Program-made: the position numbers and the translations under genes | The notes under the pieces: model-generated | Databases searched by the model: none | Seen by the model: the letters and a program-made list of their open reading frames with translations, nothing else | What the model was told of the DNA's origin: nothing | Virus record (IMG/VR): IMGVR_UViG_3300029643_000012 | Origin: a virus | Taxonomy: Duplodnaviria; Heunggongvirae; Uroviricota; Caudoviricetes | Direction: 5' to 3' (one strand) | Length of the DNA: 21,714 nucleotides | In this document: positions 1,878 to 21,714 of the stretch, piece after piece | Numbering within the stretch: position 1 is the stretch's first letter | Layout of the letters: every line of letters begins with the position of its first letter

Positions 1878-2315
1878 TGAACCGCCCCGGGAATCCTGGA
1901 GACTAAACTTCCTGAGAAAGAGGTAAACAGGATGACTAAAAATACTCGTTTTTCCCCCGAAGTCCGTCAACGGGCAGTCCGTATGGTTCTGGAAAGTCAG
2001 AGCGAATATGACTCACAATGGGCGACAATTTGTTCCATTGCTCCAAAGATTGGCTGTACGCCGGAGACTCTGCGTGTCTGGGTTCGCCAGCATGAGCGGG
2101 ATACCGGGGGCGGTGATGGAGGGCTCACCACCGCTGAACGTCAGCGTCTGAAAGAGCTGGAACGTGAAAATCGTGAACTGCGCCGCAGTAACGATATCCT
2201 TCGCCAGGCTTCCGCTTATTTTGCGAAGGCGGAGTTCGACCGCCTCTGGAAAAAATGATGCCACTGCTGGATAAGCTGCGTGAGCAGTACGGGGTCGGAC
2301 CGCTATGCAGCGAAC
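1878..2315 (+). mobile_element. Truncated IS3-family insertion sequence (IS629-like): left terminus, intact orfA, first ~19 codons of orfB
   Basis: Element starts TGAACCGCCCCGGG... at 1878. orfA translation matches IS629 OrfA as remembered. The next ORF begins [19 protein letters not shown] and then diverges into a stop after 28 codons, so the element is truncated near 2315 and no right inverted repeat is present. Confidence 0.7.
1932..2258 (+). CDS. IS3-family transposase OrfA (IS629-like)
   Basis: 108 aa; helix-turn-helix N-terminus and leucine-zipper-like C-terminus ([26 protein letters not shown]) typical of IS3-family OrfA. Confidence 0.8.
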
Positions 2316-4566: not shown

Positions 4567-4992
4567 AAGCTGTGTGACGAAGTAACCACTCTTAACAGCA
4601 TAACCAATTTTTTACGTACGTAAACTACTAAATGATATTTGTGAGAATGCCACCGAGTGTTCAAAACACCACCACAAATGCATAAGAAAACTTCAACAAA
4701 TAACCAGTTAATAATTTCCAATGTTATTTTTAGTTTGTTTAAATTAAGCTAAAGAATTATAGAGCACTTATAAATAAGTGCCATTAATATAAATTAGCTA
4801 ATAGATTTATTTTTGTTCAGACAAGAGCCATGAATAGGATTAGATAGAAAAGGTTCAGATAAAAATAGAGATCTACTTCACAAATTAAATGAGAAACTAA
4901 AACTTACATCTTGAAATAATCACATTGATTAGATGAATATTTATCGCGCAGTGACATCATTTTTTAATAATAGTTCAAAAAAAGGGCGTACA

Positions 4993-6075
4993 ATGAAAAA
5001 ATTAACAGTGGCAATTTCTGCTGTAGCTGCATCAGTACTGATGGCGATGTCTGCTCAGGCAGCTGAAATTTATAATAAAGACAGTAACAAGCTGGATCTA
5101 TACGGGAAAGTTAATGCCAAGCACTACTTCTCCTCTAATGATGCAGATGATGGTGATACTACTTATGCCCGTCTTGGCTTCAAAGGTGAAACCCAAATCA
5201 ACGATCAACTGACTGGTTTCGGTCAGTGGGAATATGAATTCAAAGGCAACCGTGCTGAATCTCAAGGTTCTTCCAAAGACAAAACCCGTCTTGCATTTGC
5301 AGGCCTGAAATTTGGTGATTACGGCTCAATCGATTACGGCCGTAACTACGGTGTAGCATACGACATCGGTGCGTGGACTGACGTTCTGCCAGAATTCGGT
5401 GGTGATACCTGGACCCAAACAGATGTGTTCATGACTGGTCGCACTACTGGTGTTGCAACTTATCGTAACAACGACTTCTTTGGTCTGGTCGATGGCCTGA
5501 ACTTTGCTGCTCAGTATCAGGGTAAAAATGACCGCACTGACGTAACTGAAGCCAATGGTGATGGTTTCGGTTTCTCCACTACTTATGAGTATGAAGGATT
5601 CGGCGTGGGTGCAACCTATGCTAAATCAGATCGCACTGACGGTCAGGTCGCCTATGGTAAGAGCAAATTCAATGCCTCCGGCAAAAATGCGGAAGTATGG
5701 GCTGCAGGCCTGAAATATGATGCGAACAATATCTATCTGGCTACCACATATTCTGAAACTCAGAATATGACCGTTTTTGGTAATAACCATATTGCAAACA
5801 AAGCACAAAACTTTGAAGCAGTAGCACAATATCAGTTTGACTTCGGTCTGCGTCCATCTGTTGCTTACCTTCAGTCAAAAGGTAAAGACCTTGGTGTTCA
5901 TGGTGACCGAGACTTAGTCAAGTATGTCGATGTCGGTGCTACTTACTACTTTAATAAAAACATGTCCACTTTTGTTGATTACAAAATCAACTTAATTGAC
6001 GATAGTAAGTTTACCAAAACAGCTGGTATTGATACCGACGACATCGTCGCTGTAGGTCTGGTTTATCAGTTCTAA
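4993..6075 (+). CDS. Outer-membrane general porin of the OmpC/OmpF/NmpC (phage Lc-type) family; lysogenic-conversion moron
   Basis: Signal peptide [23 protein letters not shown] then [17 protein letters not shown]..., ending ...VAVGLVYQF (C-terminal Phe typical of porins). Plus strand between Q and the lysis genes, as for nmpC in DLP12 and lc in PA-2. The track ORF begins at 4933 but the ATG at 4993 fits a signal peptide. Confidence 0.9.
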
Positions 6076-11564: not shown

Positions 11565-11675
11565 ATGCCCTCCATAGTAAACACGAATAAAAAAATACAA
11601 TATGTACTTTGCGAATACAAGTAAAAATACACATTGTGCATGGATGGTTCCAGTACAGAGCGTAATAATAAGGAC
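11565..11675. promoter_or_regulatory. OR region: divergent pR (towards cro) and pRM (towards cI) with operator-like TACA/TGTA repeats
   Basis: 110 bp AT-rich spacer between divergent cro and cI; minus-strand candidate pR TTGTAT-17-TATTTT shares the spacer core AAAGTACATAT with the pL candidate; several TACAA...TTGTA dyads. Confidence 0.5.
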
Positions 11676-12335
11676 ATGAAAATGAAATGGTATGAACTGG
11701 CTAGATCCAGAATGAAAGAGCTCGGCATAACTCAAGAGAAGTTAGCCGAAGAGCTAGGTATGACGCAGGGTGGGATTGGACACTGGTTGCGCGGATCTCG
11801 TCATCCATCTCTTAGTGATATTGGTGTGGTGTTTAAATACCTTGGTATTGATAACATATCATTCAACCACGACGGGACATTTTCACCTGTTGGCGAATAC
11901 TCATCGGCCCCAGTTAAAAAACAATATGAGTACCCTGTTTTTTCTCATGTTCAGGCTGGGATGTTCTCTCCAGAACTCAGAACCTTTACCAAAGGCGATG
12001 CGGAGAGATTGGTAAGCACAACCAAAAAAGCCAGTGACTCTGCATTCTGGCTTGAGGTTGAAGGTAACTCAATGACCGCACCAACAGGTTCCAAACCCAG
12101 CTTTCCTGACGGGATGTTAATTCTGGTTGACCCTGAGCAAGCTGTTGAGCCCGGCGATTTCTGCATAGCCAGACTTGGTGGTGATGAATTTACCTTCAAG
12201 AAACTGATCAGGGATAGCGGTCAGGTGTTTCTACAGCCACTAAACCCACAATACCCAATGATCCCATGCAATGAGAGTTGTTCCGTTGTGGGGAAAGTTA
12301 TCGCCAGCCAATGGCCTGAAGAGACGTTTGGGTGA
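11676..12335 (+). CDS. cI: CI repressor (S24 LexA-like autopeptidase C-terminal domain; non-lambda N-terminal DNA-binding domain)
   Basis: C-terminus ...[46 protein letters not shown] matches lambda CI; N-terminal HTH ([23 protein letters not shown]) is a different immunity type. Start at 11676 (MKMKW) or 11682 (MKW); the second has better ribosome-binding-site spacing. Confidence 0.85.
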
Positions 12336-12374: not shown

Positions 12375-12932
12375 TTGGCAAAAATAGATGATTATCAGCC
12401 AAGCCAAGTAGAAGTTGATAAAGTACTTTATTGTAAAAAAATAGTTAACTTTTCTGGCGTTAAATGGAAACAGAAACCAAGTCGCTCTGATATGTGGCTA
12501 CAAGCCCATATCATCCCCTTGGATGAGGATTGTATACCTATACAAGGGCTAAAGTTTGAACTGAAATGGAAACCAGATCAGGATTCAGAACCTGATGACC
12601 CGATTTCTTACCCTAAAATAAATATTATTGCTTTCTATCATAACAAGAGGGTTTTCGCGGTAGATACCTATCACTTTGACAAACACACGAATAGTTACAA
12701 GGTCGATCATCCGAAGTACCAAGATATCATTTACGGTGCTCACTACCATGTATACTATGAAGAAGCTGGATACTATAGTGATAGAATAGCGTTTCCAATC
12801 GAAGATGACATAAACCCAGATGACCTGGTAGGGTATTGGAATTACTTCTGTAAACATCTGAACATAACTTACTCTGGGAGAATACCTTTACCGCTTGAAG
12901 ATGAGTCGGGGCAAATGGGGTTTGGAATATGA
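12375..12932 (+). CDS. Unrecognised protein, 185 aa; first gene of a two-gene operon in the rexA-rexB position
   Basis: Uninterrupted 185-codon ORF immediately downstream of cI on the same strand; AT-rich; acidic, Tyr/His-rich (YHFDKHTNSYKVDHPKYQDIIYGAHYHVYYEEAGYY); no family recognised. Confidence 0.65.
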   Translation: MAKIDDYQPSQVEVDKVLYCKKIVNFSGVKWKQKPSRSDMWLQAHIIPLDEDCIPIQGLKFELKWKPDQDSEPDDPISYPKINIIAFYHNKRVFAVDTYHFDKHTNSYKVDHPKYQDIIYGAHYHVYYEEAGYYSDRIAFPIEDDINPDDLVGYWNYFCKHLNITYSGRIPLPLEDESGQMGFGI

Positions 12933-13681
12933 TGTGCTCAACAGTGATCTCACAACTAGGTTTCGAATGCCATCCAATAGGCAAGACCTTGAGAATTATC
13001 AGTCCATTCACTTACTGTGATGATGGAGAGCATGTCGGTGCCTTTATCCGTGAAGTCAATGGTAGGTATTTAGTTAGTGACAGATGCGATGCCTTAATGA
13101 ATATGGAGGCAAGAGGGATCTCGCTTACCAAAAAACGACTTGATGAGATACGACAATTACTGCTTAAAGAAGGCGCAGAACTCAATGCTCGAGGAGAAAT
13201 CATTGCTTGGGCAACAGAAAAGGATGTCGGTGCGATTACATCGAACATAATTAGAGCTGGTATACTCGCATCAACTTTGTCGTTAGACTGGTATCAGCCA
13301 GTTCAAGCTGAAAAGTTTGAAAGTATGGTTATTGATTATCTATATCACACAGAGCTTAGAGACGCACTTTCTCTTCGTGAAAACGTATATGGCTTGAGTG
13401 GACATCAAATTACCGTCCCTGTAACAATAAAAACCGACATACCTAAATACGTTTTTACATCAAGCGTGAAACACGGAGGAAGCTGGAATAGTGCTTACTC
13501 ATTGCTTGGGAAACTAATTGATCTTAAAGCTTCAAGTGAGGAGTATAACAACAGATTTGTTGTTATAGACAGCGAAGCAATTGGTGATCAAATGCAACAA
13601 CTCTCCTTACTCTTCCATGAATCAAGCCAAGTTCTACCATTCTCCAAAAGAGAGACTTGGGTTAAGAGACTTGCAGCATAA
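12929..13681 (+). CDS. Unrecognised protein, 250 aa; second gene of the two-gene operon
   Basis: ATG at 12929 overlaps the upstream stop (ATGA); 250-codon ORF followed by a rho-independent terminator; no family recognised. Confidence 0.65.
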   Translation: MMCSTVISQLGFECHPIGKTLRIISPFTYCDDGEHVGAFIREVNGRYLVSDRCDALMNMEARGISLTKKRLDEIRQLLLKEGAELNARGEIIAWATEKDVGAITSNIIRAGILASTLSLDWYQPVQAEKFESMVIDYLYHTELRDALSLRENVYGLSGHQITVPVTIKTDIPKYVFTSSVKHGGSWNSAYSLLGKLIDLKASSEEYNNRFVVIDSEAIGDQMQQLSLLFHESSQVLPFSKRETWVKRLAA

Positions 13682-14406: not shown

Positions 14407-14988
14407 TTACTTGTTTTTGCCATGCTTATCCTGAGCGATAAGTTCATCCATAAGGCTGTCTGCCTTCCCGGCAAACCTAATGTAGCACTCATGTCTATAG
14501 CTTTCAGGGATAACGAAACGGTCGGTATCAGGATATCCAACAGCAGGAGGCCTTCGAACGAGGAGTCCTTTTTTGAGCAATGAAATTGATTCATGAGCGC
14601 CCTTTTCCGTTTGTAGCTGGTTATTAGCGGCTACAGCGAATGCCAAATACGCTCTTTCTCCAAGAGTTAACGAATCAAACAAATCTTGCACATATTTTTC
14701 TTCTTTAGATTTGCGCTTCTGAGCAGCGAATACCTCAATTCTTTCAGTCACAGCGTGATAAGCGGAATTAACAACGCCGTTAAGCACATAGCTAACGCAA
14801 AACAACAGGATGTAATACATCCAGTAATGAGGAAGGATTTCTGGATTATGCAGGTTTATCCATTCTTTTACGCTTACCGGCATAACAATAATCAATATGA
14901 TCAGGATGATTAGCATATGAATCAACTGTTTAAGTGTCATTCCTTGCAGGAAAAAATGCATTAGTTCCTGCCACCATGAGTTGTTCAT
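14407..14988 (-). CDS. sieB: Superinfection exclusion protein SieB
   Basis: 193 aa MNNSWWQELMHFFLQGMTLKQLIHMLIILIILIIVMPVSVKEW...; N-terminal membrane segments; matches lambda SieB as remembered; convergent with N as in lambda. Confidence 0.8.
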   Translation of the reverse strand: MNNSWWQELMHFFLQGMTLKQLIHMLIILIILIIVMPVSVKEWINLHNPEILPHYWMYYILLFCVSYVLNGVVNSAYHAVTERIEVFAAQKRKSKEEKYVQDLFDSLTLGERAYLAFAVAANNQLQTEKGAHESISLLKKGLLVRRPPAVGYPDTDRFVIPESYRHECYIRFAGKADSLMDELIAQDKHGKNK

Positions 14989-15953: not shown

Positions 15954-16025
15954 GCGCGGCGTTACCGCATACCAATTACGCTTCACTCGAGGCGTTTTTC
16001 GTTATGTATAAATAAGGAGCACACC

Positions 16026-16190
16026 ATGCAATATGCCATTGCAGGGTGGCCTGTTGCTGGCTGCCCTTCCGAATCTTTACTTGAACGAATCACCCGTAAA
16101 TTACGTGACGGATGGAAACGCCTTATCGACATACTTAATCAGCCAGGAGTCCCAAAAAATGGATCAAACAATTATGGCTATCCAGACTAA
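16026..16190 (+). CDS. cIII: CIII (FtsH inhibitor that stabilises CII)
   Basis: Hand translation from the ATG at 16026: [54 protein letters not shown], matching lambda CIII. Not in the ORF track (under 60 aa). Confidence 0.85.
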   Translation: MQYAIAGWPVAGCPSESLLERITRKLRDGWKRLIDILNQPGVPKNGSNNYGYPD

Positions 16191-19642: not shown

Positions 19643-19781
19643 AAAAATTGATAAATTCAATACTGCATTTCTCAGCATTAAATTTATCTCTATGACCAGT
19701 CAAGAGATGTACCTGCCATGAGCTTAATATCATGTCAGATATATCGGTCACAAACTCCCTCAGCAGCTAAGAGGAGGACAA

Positions 19782-20018
19782 ATGTCTCGACTAATCACTT
19801 TACAGGACTGGGCTAAAGAAGAATTTGGGGACTTAGCACCAAGTGAGCGAGTTCTGAAAAAATACGCGCAAGGGAAAATGATGGCCCCACCCGCTATAAA
19901 AGTTGGTCGCTACTGGATGATTGACCGAAATTCCCGTTTTGTAGGAACGCTTGCAGAACCGCAACTCCCAATAAACGCAAACCCAAAACTCCAAAGGATA
20001 ATCGCTGATGGCTGCTAG
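19782..20018 (+). CDS. xis: Excisionase-like protein (Xis)
   Basis: 78 aa immediately upstream of and overlapping the integrase start; GAGGAGG ribosome-binding site upstream; AlpA/Xis-like size and position. Confidence 0.65.
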   Translation: MSRLITLQDWAKEEFGDLAPSERVLKKYAQGKMMAPPAIKVGRYWMIDRNSRFVGTLAEPQLPINANPKLQRIIADGC

Positions 20019-21150
20019 ACCCCGATCTCACAAAATCTCTATACCCAATTTATATTGCAAATTAGATAAGCGAACCGGAAAGGTATATTGGCAATACAAA
20101 CATCCACTATCCGGTCGTTTTCATAGCTTAGGAACTGATGAGAATGAAGCAAAACAAGTTGCTACTGAAGCAAATACCATTATTGCTGAACAACGTACCA
20201 GACAAATATTAAGCGTCAATGAGCGTCTGGAAAGAATGAAAGGCAGGCGCTCAGACATTACGGTGACAGAATGGCTTGATAAATATATTTCTATCCAAGA
20301 GGACAGGCTGCAACATAATGAACTAAGACCCAACTCCTATCGGCAAAAAGGCAAACCCATTCGTCTTTTCCGTGAGCATTGTGGAATGCAACACCTCAAG
20401 GATATTACCGCACTTGATATTGCCGAAATAATTGATGCTGTAAAGGCTGAAGGTCATAACAGGATGGCGCAAGTCGTGAGAATGGTGTTGATCGACGTCT
20501 TCAAAGAAGCACAACACGCAGGACATGTTCCGCCAGGATTTAACCCAGCGCAGGCAACAAAACAACCACGAAATCGAGTAAACCGCCAAAGATTGTCACT
20601 GCCCGAATGGCAGGCAATATTTGACAGCGTAAGCAGACGGCAGCCCTATTTAAAATGCGGCATGCTACTTGCTCTTGTTACTGGACAACGTTTAGGCGAT
20701 ATCTGCAATTTGAAATTCTCTGATATATGGGACGACATGTTGCACATTACTCAGGAAAAAACCGGTTCAAAACTTGCTATTCCGCTTAACCTGAAATGCG
20801 ATGCTCTGAATATTACCCTTCGTGAAGTTATATCTCAGTGCAGGGATGCTGTTGTTAGTAAATATCTGGTCCATTACCGTCACACTACCTCTCAAGCAAA
20901 CAGAGGAGACCAGGTTTCTGCGAATACTCTGACAACGGCTTTTAAAAAGGCCCGGGAAAAATGTGGCATAAAATGGGAGCAAGGAACTGCGCCCACATTT
21001 CATGAGCAGCGATCTCTGTCAGAACGGTTATATCGGGAACAGGGTCTGGATACGCAAAAGTTGTTAGGCCATAAATCCAGAAAAATGACCGACCGATACA
21101 ATGATGATCGTGGTAAAGACTGGATTATCGTAGATATCAAAACAGCATAG
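20008..21150 (+). CDS. int: Tyrosine integrase (icd-specific; e14/phage-21-type)
   Basis: 380 aa; catalytic-domain motifs (...GQRLGDI..., ...HEQRSLSERLY..., ...LLGHKSRKMTDRY... with the Tyr nucleophile); convergent with and adjacent to the icd 3' end. Confidence 0.9.
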   Translation: MAARPRSHKISIPNLYCKLDKRTGKVYWQYKHPLSGRFHSLGTDENEAKQVATEANTIIAEQRTRQILSVNERLERMKGRRSDITVTEWLDKYISIQEDRLQHNELRPNSYRQKGKPIRLFREHCGMQHLKDITALDIAEIIDAVKAEGHNRMAQVVRMVLIDVFKEAQHAGHVPPGFNPAQATKQPRNRVNRQRLSLPEWQAIFDSVSRRQPYLKCGMLLALVTGQRLGDICNLKFSDIWDDMLHITQEKTGSKLAIPLNLKCDALNITLREVISQCRDAVVSKYLVHYRHTTSQANRGDQVSANTLTTAFKKAREKCGIKWEQGTAPTFHEQRSLSERLYREQGLDTQKLLGHKSRKMTDRYNDDRGKDWIIVDIKTA

Positions 21151-21160
21151 AAAATAGCCA

Positions 21161-21199
21161 GTTTTGGGGAAGGGTTTTGGGGAAAGTTTTGGGGAAGAT
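21161..21199. repeat. Three tandem 13-bp direct repeats (GTTTTGGGGAAGG-like) between int and icd
   Basis: gttttggggaagg gttttggggaaag ttttggggaaga read directly from the sequence; candidate arm-type recombinase or accessory-factor binding sites. Confidence 0.6.
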
Positions 21200-21218
21200 T
21201 TTACATCATCATAAAACA

Positions 21219-21241
21219 ACGGGCGTGTTATACGCCCGTTT
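21219..21241 (-). terminator. Rho-independent terminator for icd (minus strand)
   Basis: AACGGGCGT-GTTAT-ACGCCCGTT, followed on the minus strand by GTTTTAT, about 25 bp after the icd stop. Confidence 0.65.
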
Positions 21242-21263
21242 CAATATTTAACACATGTAGTGA

Positions 21264-21714
21264 TTACATATTCTTGATGATCGCGTCACCAAACTCTGAA
21301 CATTTCAGCAGTTTAGCGCCTTCCATCAGACGTTCGAAGTCATAGGTTACGGTCTTGGCATTGATTGCGCCTTCCATACCTTTAACAATCAGGTCAGCCG
21401 CTTCAGTCCAACCCATATGGCGCAGCATCATCTCAGCGGAGAGAATAATAGAGCCTGGGTTTACTTTGTCCTGTCCGGCATATTTCGGCGCAGTACCGTG
21501 GGTGGCTTCAAACAGGGCGCATTCGTCACCGATGTTTGCGCCAGGGGCGATACCGATACCACCAACCTGCGCTGCCAGGGCGTCAGAAATGTAGTCACCG
21601 TTCAGGTTCATACAGGCGATAACATCATATTCAGCCGGACGCAGCAGGATCTGTTGCAGGAATGCATCAGCAATCACGTCTTTAATGACGATCTCTTTGC
21701 CGGTATTCGGGTTT
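21264..21714 (-). CDS. icd: Isocitrate dehydrogenase (NADP), 3' end only (gene runs off the right edge); distal codons probably prophage-supplied
   Basis: Translation ...[66 protein letters not shown]...[10 protein letters not shown] is the Icd C-terminus. The track ORF start at 21677 is an internal Met. Confidence 0.9.

What the first reader, a model, noticed from the sequence alone, without database searches (positions are those of the whole stretch)
21150..21714. Prophage end at icd: prophage-supplied icd 3' end, terminator and tandem repeats beside int
Seen in sequence: the Icd C-terminus ends ...[10 protein letters not shown], whereas I remember ...IIENM for the chromosomal gene. It is followed by its own terminator hairpin (21219..21241), three tandem 13-bp repeats (21161..21199) and the convergent integrase. 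Established knowledge: e14 and phage 21 integrate within icd and rebuild its 3' end with phage-borne sequence, leaving the displaced original segment at the other prophage end. The exact att core is not identifiable from this window alone.
Basis: partly seen in the sequence, partly recalled or inferred. Interest (0 to 1): 0.4.

Follow-up and report, generated by a model that had tools for sequence, protein, structure and literature searches.

The report
Phage 21-type prophage junction in icd
This is the integrase-side end of a phage 21-type lambdoid prophage inserted in the E. coli isocitrate dehydrogenase gene, with the phage supplying a replacement gene end, terminator and integrase-binding repeats; it is a long-known textbook arrangement, so the finding is correct but ordinary.

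Summary
The region is the left junction (attL) of a phage 21-type prophage in icd.

- **Module identity:** xis-int and the adjoining 277 bases are 98.7% identical to phage 21 and 99.2% identical to phage 4A7. Identity to free phage genomes stops sharply at window 21427.
- **Phage-borne block:** 21211-21427 (217 bp) holds a copy of the icd terminator and the last 164 nt of icd. From 21428 onward the sequence is host icd.
- **Crossover:** it lies within 21418-21427.
- **Repeats:** three exact dodecamers GTTTTGGGGAAR (21161, 21174, 21186) sit where lambda has P'1-P'3. In 20 of 27 related loci a triplet or part of one keeps the same spacing, and its motif changes along with the integrase arm-binding domain. 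They are therefore very probably arm-type Int sites, and the phage 21 record already annotates them as attP subsites.
- **Far end:** in two proxy genomes it carries the displaced 165-nt icd fragment.

Two corrections. IIKNM is not a phage marker, because prophage-free strains encode it too. The terminator is a copy of the native icd terminator, not a separate phage one.

Already known; low interest.

The parts
19782..20018 (+). xis (excisionase), 78 aa
   Evidence: ORF. Pfam PF07825 Exc, 26.5 bits. Annotated as excisionase in phage 21.
20008..21150 (+). int: lambda-type tyrosine integrase, 380 aa, with an N-terminal arm-binding domain
   Evidence: PF09003 Arm-DNA-bind_1 (98.8 bits) and PF00589. 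35% identical to lambda Int over the full length, with R-K-H-R-H-Y aligned. 60% identical to e14 IntE. 98.7% nucleotide identity to phage 21 int.
21161..21172 (+). dodecamer GTTTTGGGGAAG, candidate arm-type Int site nearest int (P'3-like)
   Evidence: Exact match. Annotated as an attP subsite in OL657228.1. Triplet conserved in related loci.
21174..21185 (+). dodecamer GTTTTGGGGAAA, candidate arm-type Int site (P'2-like)
21186..21197 (+). dodecamer GTTTTGGGGAAG, candidate arm-type Int site nearest the core (P'1-like)
21208..21240 (-). phage-borne copy of the icd rho-independent terminator (stem-loop 21218-21240, U-tract 21208-21217)
   Evidence: Hairpin sequence identical to the terminator of prophage-free attB. 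The e14 copy keeps the hairpin with different stem bases.
21211..21427 (.). 217-bp block shared by attP and attB (the att identity block); phage-derived in this attL
   Evidence: Matches to prophage-free genomes start at 21211-21213. Phage matches end at 21427. 2 of 217 differences to 4A7 attP against 11 of 217 to SK1144's own displaced copy.
21264..21427 (-). phage-supplied last 164 nt of icd, stop codon 21264-21266 included: 53 whole sense codons (LRHMGW...IIKNM) and two bases of the Met codon that spans the junction
21418..21427 (.). interval containing the strand-exchange (overlap) region of the att core, TGGCGCAGCA
   Evidence: The right limit is the end of attP/attB identity. The left limit is position 21417, where attL and attR differ in both SK1144 and K-12. 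e14 excision switches that same base (PMC13626634 Table 1).
21428..21714 (-). host-derived icd coding sequence, which continues beyond the window
   Evidence: 0 differences in 287 nt to prophage-free AR_0017. No similarity to phage attP.

Best explanation
Window 21150-21714 is the int-proximal junction (attL, of the form B-O-P') of a phage 21-type lambdoid prophage integrated inside icd.

The phage attP carries, between its crossover site and its P' arm, a 217-bp replacement cassette made of the last 164 nt of icd and the icd terminator. Int-mediated exchange within TGGCGCAGCA (21418-21427) joins host icd (21428 onward) to this cassette. Icd therefore stays full-length, with an unchanged amino-acid sequence, and keeps a terminator. 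The original 3' end is left as a pseudogene at the other prophage end.

The three dodecamers immediately after the int stop codon are the P' arm-type sites. They would be bound by the N-terminal arm-binding domain of Int. Together with a fourth copy about 120 nt beyond the core in the P arm (at attR in a lysogen), they would assemble the recombination complex for integration and, with Xis, for excision.

Shown here: the sequence identities, the boundaries, the repeat geometry, the domain content, and the co-variation of motif with Int class. Inferred: Int binding to the dodecamers, the exact 7-bp overlap, and terminator activity.
For: **Module identity**
- Window 19700-21427 is 98.7% identical to phage 21 (M61865.1, OL657228.1) and 99.2% identical to phages 4A7, 3W and 1W. 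All of these matches end at 21422-21427.
- The phage 21 record annotates the same three elements: attP subsites with consensus YYTTCCCCAAAA, a terminator and an ICDH-like pseudogene.

**Junction**
- The four-way att alignment reads ...GGCGCAGCA followed by TCATCTC in the host and GTATATA in the phage.
- The phage-borne block shows 2 of 217 differences to 4A7 attP, 11 of 217 to SK1144's own displaced copy, and 7 of 217 against 0 of 287 to prophage-free AR_0017, p = 0.0026.

**Far end**
- SK1144 and ATCC 11775 have ymgL, then a 168-nt icd pseudogene, then phage DNA. This matches the icd/icdC layout in K-12.

**Integrase**
- Int has the lambda arm-binding domain (PF09003, E = 1.8e-28) and the catalytic domain.

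**Arm sites**
- A fourth dodecamer lies 119 nt past the boundary in the phage 21 attP and in SK1144 attR.
- e14 has the same geometry with a different motif, TTTTGATAAC: three copies plus one.
- In 20 of 27 related loci from other Enterobacterales the motif recurs just after int. Sixteen show all three or four copies at 13+11/12 (12+13 in one locus); the other four show two or three copies that fit the same register. The motif is GGGG, ATAA, ACTG or GCAG and follows the class of the Int N-terminal domain.
- Lambda P'1-P'3 abut the int stop codon in the same way, and lambda P1 lies 126-135 nt from the core in the same orientation.

**Literature**
[quoted passage not shown] - The e14, icd and icdC arrangement is described in PMC13626634.
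Against: - The window itself does not contain the other prophage end, and no complete E. coli genome matches the whole window at 100% (best 92-94% coverage). The displaced fragment is therefore shown only in proxies that share the attL end.
- Int binding to the dodecamers has not been demonstrated here, and I could not read the primary biochemical papers.
- Positions 21423 and 21425 (C..G or T..A) vary in both the phage attP and host attB pools, so the exact 7-bp overlap is not fixed.
- The phage 21 attP region was scanned for IHF consensus sites. The P' side has none, and the two matches found in the P arm are no more than chance gives. How the P' sites reach a core about 220 bp away is therefore unexplained.
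Confidence: 0.95

Rival explanations
1. There is no phage contribution to icd. The integrase element simply sits in the intergenic space downstream of an intact chromosomal icd, and the 3' end and terminator are the native ones.
For: The terminator hairpin and the encoded C-terminus are identical to those of prophage-free strains. The Icd protein accession is the same in lysogens and non-lysogens.
Against: Free phage genomes carry this 217-bp block, and their identity to the window stops at 21427 inside icd. Divergence from a prophage-free allele steps from 7 in 217 to 0 in 287 at that point. A second, different copy of the same 165 nt lies at the far end in the proxy genomes.
Confidence: 0.02
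2. The three repeats are not Int arm sites. They would instead be another signal, for example a G-quadruplex-forming T4G4-like array, an int 3' UTR regulatory element, or binding sites for Xis or a host protein.
For: No binding data were available to me. The plus strand holds four G-runs (GGGG AA GGG TTTT GGGG AAAGTTTT GGGG). Folding of the int 3' region gives no significant structure (z = -0.78), which leaves the function open.
Against: The triplet's position and its 13+11/12 spacing are kept while the central bases change, and three of the four motif classes have no G-run. The motif class follows the class of the Int arm-binding domain. A fourth copy sits in the P arm at the distance of lambda P1. 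Int has the PF09003 arm-binding domain.
Confidence: 0.04
3. The junction belongs to an e14-type element rather than a phage 21-type prophage.
For: The attB site and the overall layout are the same: three repeats, a terminator copy and the icd 3' end.
Against: Int is only 60% identical to IntE but about 99% identical at nucleotide level to phage 21 int. The arm motif is TTTTGGGGAA, not TTTTGATAAC. Here int abuts the att site, whereas e14 has ymfD, ymfE and lit in between.
Confidence: 0.01

Closest known systems
Phage 21 int-xis-attP module (GenBank M61865.1, OL657228.1) and its relatives 4A7, 3W, 1W and ev207
   Same: The order xis, int, three dodecamers, terminator, icd 3' fragment is the same. 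Nucleotide identity is 98.7-99.2%. The end of identity inside icd is the same.
   Different: This is the integrated attL form, so host icd follows the junction instead of the phage P arm. The icd fragment matches 4A7 (2 of 217 differences) better than phage 21 itself (13 of 217, including a TCA/AGC serine codon switch at 21297-21300).
Cryptic prophage e14 of E. coli K-12 (icd / icdC)
   Same: Same attB and the same crossover interval. It also carries a replacement icd 3' end and terminator, three tandem arm repeats on the P' side and one on the P side, and a displaced icdC at the far end.
   Different: Int is 60% identical. The arm motif is TTTTGATAAC. The terminator stem has different bases. 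int lies about 3.3 kb from the att site.
Phage lambda attP and attL (P'1-P'3, P1, P2, core)
   Same: A heterobivalent Int with an arm-binding domain. Three tandem arm-type sites abut the int stop codon. The outer P-arm site lies about 125 nt from the core in the same orientation.
   Different: Lambda integrates between gal and bio, not inside a gene. Lambda P'1 is about 47 nt from the core, whereas here the nearest dodecamer is about 220 nt away because the icd cassette lies in between. The arm consensus differs and Int is 35% identical.

Membership tests
Phage 21-type icd-integrating lambdoid prophage (attL end) | int and xis nearly identical to those of phage 21 | tested here: met
   98.7% nucleotide identity over 1728 nt to M61865.1 and OL657228.1.
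Phage 21-type icd-integrating lambdoid prophage (attL end) | phage-borne replacement of the icd 3' end whose identity to free-phage attP ends inside icd | tested here: met
   Phage matches end at 21427. The four-way alignment shows the switch. There is a step in divergence from a prophage-free allele.
Phage 21-type icd-integrating lambdoid prophage (attL end) | displaced original icd 3' fragment and phage P arm at the other prophage end | not testable with these tools
   This lies outside the window, and the source genome was not found. It is met in proxies with an identical or near-identical attL: SK1144 and ATCC 11775.
Phage 21-type icd-integrating lambdoid prophage (attL end) | three dodecamers YYTTCCCCAAAA between int and the terminator | tested here: met
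   Exact copies at 21161, 21174 and 21186, matching the annotation in OL657228.1.
Lambda-type heterobivalent tyrosine integrase system | N-terminal arm-binding domain together with a catalytic domain carrying the R-K-H-R-H-Y residues | tested here: met
   PF09003 at 98.8 bits and PF00589 at 84.6 bits. The catalytic residues align with lambda Int.
Lambda-type heterobivalent tyrosine integrase system | arm-type sites in both arms that the Int N-terminal domain binds | tested here: inconclusive
   Candidate sites are present in the P' arm (window) and the P arm (phage 21, SK1144 attR). Their motif co-varies with the Int N-domain class. Binding itself cannot be tested here.
Lambda-type heterobivalent tyrosine integrase system | short overlap region identical in attP and attB where strands are exchanged | tested here: met
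   Bounded to 21418-21427 by the end of identity and by the attL/attR marker at 21417 (PMC13626634). The exact 7 bp are not resolved.
Rho-independent terminator | G+C-rich hairpin followed by a U-tract on the transcribed strand | tested here: met
   9-bp stem, 6 G-C pairs, tail GUUUUAU on the icd strand. z-score -3.0. Termination activity was not tested.
e14 element | IntE-type integrase and TTTTGATAAC arm repeats | tested here: not met
   60% protein identity to IntE. The arm motif here is TTTTGGGGAA.

The most novel reading that the evidence does not exclude
The icd-targeting integrases of Enterobacterales form one family with a fixed arm architecture: three tandem sites spaced 13+11/12 just after int, and one site about 120 nt beyond the core. 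Within this family there are at least four interchangeable arm-recognition codes (TTTTG-GGGA, -ATAA, -ACTG with an A for the G, and -CAG). Each code is matched by a class of N-terminal domain. Different elements could therefore share one attB without excising each other. A more remote reading is that the T4G4-like array of the phage 21 class also forms a G-quadruplex that affects int expression or complex assembly.
Probability: 0.5. Interest if true: 0.25.

Novelty: already known. Interest (0 to 1): 0.1.

Why it matters
It matters little as a discovery. Integration of phage 21 and e14 into icd, with a phage-borne replacement 3' end, has been known since around 1990 and is annotated in public records.

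It has some practical use for annotation:
- About 31% of complete E. coli genomes (1680 of 5426) carry this int-attL junction.
- In those strains the last 164 nt of 'icd' (stop codon included) and its terminator are phage DNA. This affects icd-based typing and phylogeny.
- It also explains clustered silent polymorphism at the 3' end of icd.

Tried and rejected
1. **Primary papers.** I tried to read Wang et al. 1997 (J Bacteriol 179:5705) and Hill et al. 1989. Neither is held. What I say about them rests on citations in PMC12803456, PMC10111431 and PMC13626634, and otherwise on memory, which I mark as such.
2. **Locating the crossover with O157:H7.** I compared O157:H7 attL with O55:H7 attB to place the crossover left of 21423. 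I rejected this as inconclusive because free phages such as Lambda_2E9 also carry the T..A allele at 21423/21425.
3. **Phage D2 record.** Record OM475427.1 appeared to carry a longer icd segment (match to 21547). It contains runs of N and host icd sequence past the junction, so it looks like a chimeric or prophage-derived assembly and not a variant attP.
4. **IHF consensus search.** It gave two sites in the phage 21 P arm and none on the P' side, which is not above chance.
5. **Source genome.** The whole-window search found no 100% full-length match. SK1144 and ATCC 11775 are therefore only proxies for the far end.
6. **Rfam.** No family reaches threshold in 21150-21264. There is only a sub-threshold tpke11 hit (20.8 bits against a threshold of 43), which I take as chance or terminator-like.
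7. **Lambda record annotation.** The 'int 4' binding-site feature in the lambda GenBank record does not coincide with P'1-P'3 as read from the sequence, so I used the sequence and not the annotation.
8. **Scripted analysis.** Most fetched loci were not available to scripts, so I used the alignment and repeat tools instead.

Full report
**Observation**

- int (20008-21150, plus strand) is convergent with an ORF on the minus strand that ends at 21264 with ...[10 protein letters not shown].
- Tandem Repeats Finder reports a period-13 array at 21160-21202.
- Read closely, the array is three exact dodecamers GTTTTGGGGAAR at 21161, 21174 and 21186. Over the whole window 0.31 matches with up to one mismatch are expected by chance.
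- A terminator-like hairpin lies on the minus strand at 21240-21218: 9 pairs, 6 of them G-C, followed by the tail GTTTTATGAT. Its free energy is -18.5 kcal/mol and its z-score against shuffles is -3.0.

**Identity of the module**

Window 19700-21427 matches 24 phage genomes over most of its length.
- It is 98.7% identical to phage 21 (M61865.1 and the complete genome OL657228.1).
- It is 99.2% identical to phages 4A7, 3W and 1W.
- Every one of these matches ends at window 21422-21427, inside icd.
- The phage 21 genome record annotates the same three elements next to int. They are an 'integration site attP' of three subsites with consensus YYTTCCCCAAAA, a terminator, and an ICDH-like pseudogene.

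The integrase has the lambda Int arm DNA-binding domain (PF09003, 98.8 bits) and the tyrosine recombinase catalytic domain.
- It aligns over its full length with lambda Int at 35% identity, with the catalytic residues conserved.
- It is 60% identical to IntE of e14.

**Where the phage ends and the host begins**

I aligned four sequences:
- the window (attL);
- phage 21 attP;
- the prophage-free locus of strain AR_0017 (attB), where ymgL is followed directly by icd;
- the far end of the prophage in strain SK1144 (attR). SK1144's attL end is 100% identical to the window over 715 nt.

All four share a block from about 21211 to 21427. After ...GGCGCAGCA the two host-type sequences continue TCATCTCAGCGG (icd), and the two phage-type sequences continue GTATATAAAAA (P arm). 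Matches to prophage-free genomes begin at 21211-21213. The attP/attB identity block is therefore 217 bp. It includes the terminator and the last 164 nt of icd.

Differences across this block:

| Compared with | Differences in 21211-21427 | Differences in 21428-21714 |
|---|---|---|
| 4A7 attP (free phage) | 2 of 217 | not applicable |
| SK1144's own displaced copy (attR) | 11 of 217 | not applicable |
| AR_0017 attB (prophage-free) | 7 of 217 | 0 of 287 |

For AR_0017 the contrast between the two segments gives Fisher p = 0.0026.

**Crossover interval**

The right limit is the end of attP/attB identity at 21427.

The left limit is position 21417, on three grounds:
- In SK1144, attL has A at 21417 and attR has G.
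- In K-12, attL has G and attR has A.
- A published re-analysis of e14 excision reports that this very base switches on excision: MG1655 position 1196220, H366H CAC to CAT (PMC13626634 Table 1).

Strand exchange therefore lies within TGGCGCAGCA, window 21418-21427.

I could not fix the 7-bp overlap. Positions 21423 and 21425 occur as C..G or T..A in both phage attP sequences (Lambda_2E9 has T..A) and host attB sequences.

**The displaced fragment**

The window does not reach the other prophage end. No complete E. coli genome holds the whole window at 100% (best 92-94% coverage at about 98-99% identity). The far end can therefore only be shown in proxies.
- In SK1144 and in the type strain ATCC 11775, a 168-nt 'isocitrate/isopropylmalate family dehydrogenase, missing N-terminus' pseudogene lies beside ymgL. 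This is where intact icd sits in prophage-free strains.
- It is followed by phage P-arm sequence, sitABCD and tail fibre genes.
- K-12 has the equivalent icd / e14 / icdC arrangement.

First, IIKNM is not a phage signature.
- Phage 21, prophage-free AR_0017, the displaced SK1144 copy and the window all encode ...GDAIIKNM.
- The other non-K-12 E. coli sequences aligned (Nissle, O157:H7 F3113, UID2309220010, DEC5A, M10, GPEC1352, Lambda_2E9, 4A7, D2) read the same last five codons.
- K-12 encodes ...IIENM in both its e14-supplied copy and its displaced copy.
- Several prophage-free strains and several lysogens share the same Icd protein accession.

Second, the terminator is not a separate phage terminator. 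Its hairpin is base-for-base that of the native icd terminator in prophage-free strains.
- The phage carries a copy of it.
- The e14 copy keeps the hairpin with different stem bases (GGGAGCG...CGCUCCC).
- The Kosakonia relative has yet another hairpin in the same place.
- Together these suggest the structure is maintained.

**What the repeats are**

Several lines point to arm-type Int binding sites, the equivalent of lambda P'1-P'3.

1. **Domain.** Int has the arm-binding domain.
2. **Position.** In lambda the three P' sites are tandem with spacing 10 and 11, and they abut the int stop codon. P1 lies 126-135 nt on the other side of the core in the same orientation. Here the three dodecamers start 11 nt after the int stop.
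3. **Fourth copy.** A copy, ATTTTGGGGAAA, lies 119 nt beyond the boundary in the phage 21 attP and in SK1144 attR, in the same orientation.
4. **e14 parallel.** e14, which uses the same attB, has the same geometry with a different motif. There are three TTTTGATAAC copies after its terminator copy and one copy 118 nt beyond the core.
5. **Co-variation.**
   - Among 27 sampled loci encoding Int relatives from other Enterobacterales, 20 have the motif repeated just after int.
   - Sixteen of the 20 show all three or four copies at 13+11/12 (12+13 in one locus). The other four show two or three copies that fit the same register.
   - The motif is TTTTGGGGAA for Ints 66-84% identical. It is TTTTGATAA for the e14-like class, ATTTTACTGAG in Pectobacterium and Symbiopectobacterium, and TTTTGCAG in Serratia, Rahnella and one Pantoea.
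   - The N-terminal 70 residues fall into the same four classes.
   - In 18 of the 80 fetched loci the Icd HMGWTEA coding motif lies on the opposite strand about 250 nt after int in most of them.
   - I read the Kosakonia locus in full and it has the same layout.

Binding itself is inferred, not shown.

From memory, not verified here: Wang et al. 1997 delimited the minimal phage 21 attP to about 366-418 bp, bounded by 'repeated dodecamers' proposed as arm sites. The span from 21161 to the P-arm copy would be about 397 bp, which is consistent with that.

**How it most likely works**

- **Integration.** Int exchanges strands in the 10-bp interval at the upstream edge of the identity block. Host icd codons up to Met-363 (MG1655 numbering, from the H366 marker) then run on into the phage-borne last 53 codons and terminator. 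The enzyme is unchanged and transcription still stops.
- **Displaced end.** The original 3' end is stranded at attR, as in e14 (PMC13626634).
- **Why attP is long.** Because the cassette lies between the core and the P' sites, the nearest arm site is about 220 bp from the core. In lambda it is about 47 bp. No IHF consensus is found on that side of the phage 21 attP, so how the arm reaches the core is open.
- **Possible dual use of the hairpin.** It may also act on int transcripts. On the plus strand it is followed by UUUCAAUAUUU, which is below the scan threshold.

**Comparison with what is known, and verdict**

Integration at icd with a replacement sequence in attP is described as well known (PMC10111431). 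[quoted passage not shown] The junction is common: 1680 of 5426 complete E. coli genomes cover at least 80% of window 21000-21714.

The finding is a correct reading of a known structure. The only modest addition is the cross-genus view of four arm-motif classes with one fixed geometry.

Novelty: already known. Interest: 0.1.

Noticed in passing
window 12375-12929 (+) and 12929-13678 (+): Two genes lie directly downstream of the cI-type repressor gene (11634-12332), in the position lambda gives to rexAB. They hit the PADLOC candidate defence pair PDC-M24A (E = 4.8e-4) and PDC-M24B (E = 4.7e-10), and Pfam DUF6978 and DUF1828. A SieB homologue follows at 14410-14988 on the minus strand.
   Followed up: partly
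window 4933-6072 (+): A prophage-borne OmpC-like porin of 380 aa (PF00267, 504 bits) lies between the lysis genes and the Q/nin region.
   Followed up: no
window 2213-2312 (+): Rfam finds an ALIL pseudoknot (RF01497, 75.9 bits), the frameshift element of IS3-family transposases. This suggests an IS element inserted between the Nu1 gene and the lysis genes. The lambda cIII thermoregulator is at 16013-16071.
   Followed up: no
window 21227-21231 (terminator loop); L014, L016, L013: The terminator loop is inverted (TGTTATA versus TATAACA) in phage Lambda_2E9, in phage D2 and in the attL of strain UID2309220010. The stem is unchanged.
   Followed up: no
window 21423 and 21425: A linked C..G / T..A polymorphism inside the crossover-adjacent CGCAGCA occurs in both free-phage attP sequences and prophage-free attB alleles. 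This would be expected if phage and host exchange alleles at or near the overlap.
   Followed up: partly
L004 21283-24732 (SK1144) and L017 13930-17379 (ATCC 11775): In both proxy lysogens the sitABCD iron/manganese transporter genes lie inside the element, between attR (the displaced icd fragment and the P arm) and the tail fibre genes. They therefore appear to be prophage cargo.
   Followed up: no
L016 (OM475427.1, phage D2): This 'phage' record has a run of N across the first dodecamer and continues into host icd past the att boundary before rejoining the P arm. It looks like a chimeric or prophage-derived assembly.
   Followed up: partly
L018 (USAL01000018.1, 'uncultured Sutterella sp.' UMGS1525): A 23.5-kb contig of a genome bin labelled Sutterella encodes an Int 100% identical to the window's. 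It has the icd motif at the same offset as in the window. It is probably an E. coli contig placed in the wrong bin.
   Followed up: partly
L019-L094, just after int: Int relatives across Enterobacterales keep a triplet with 13+11/12 spacing but use four different motifs: GGGG, ATAA, ACTG and GCAG. The motif matches the class of the Int N-terminal domain.
   Followed up: partly
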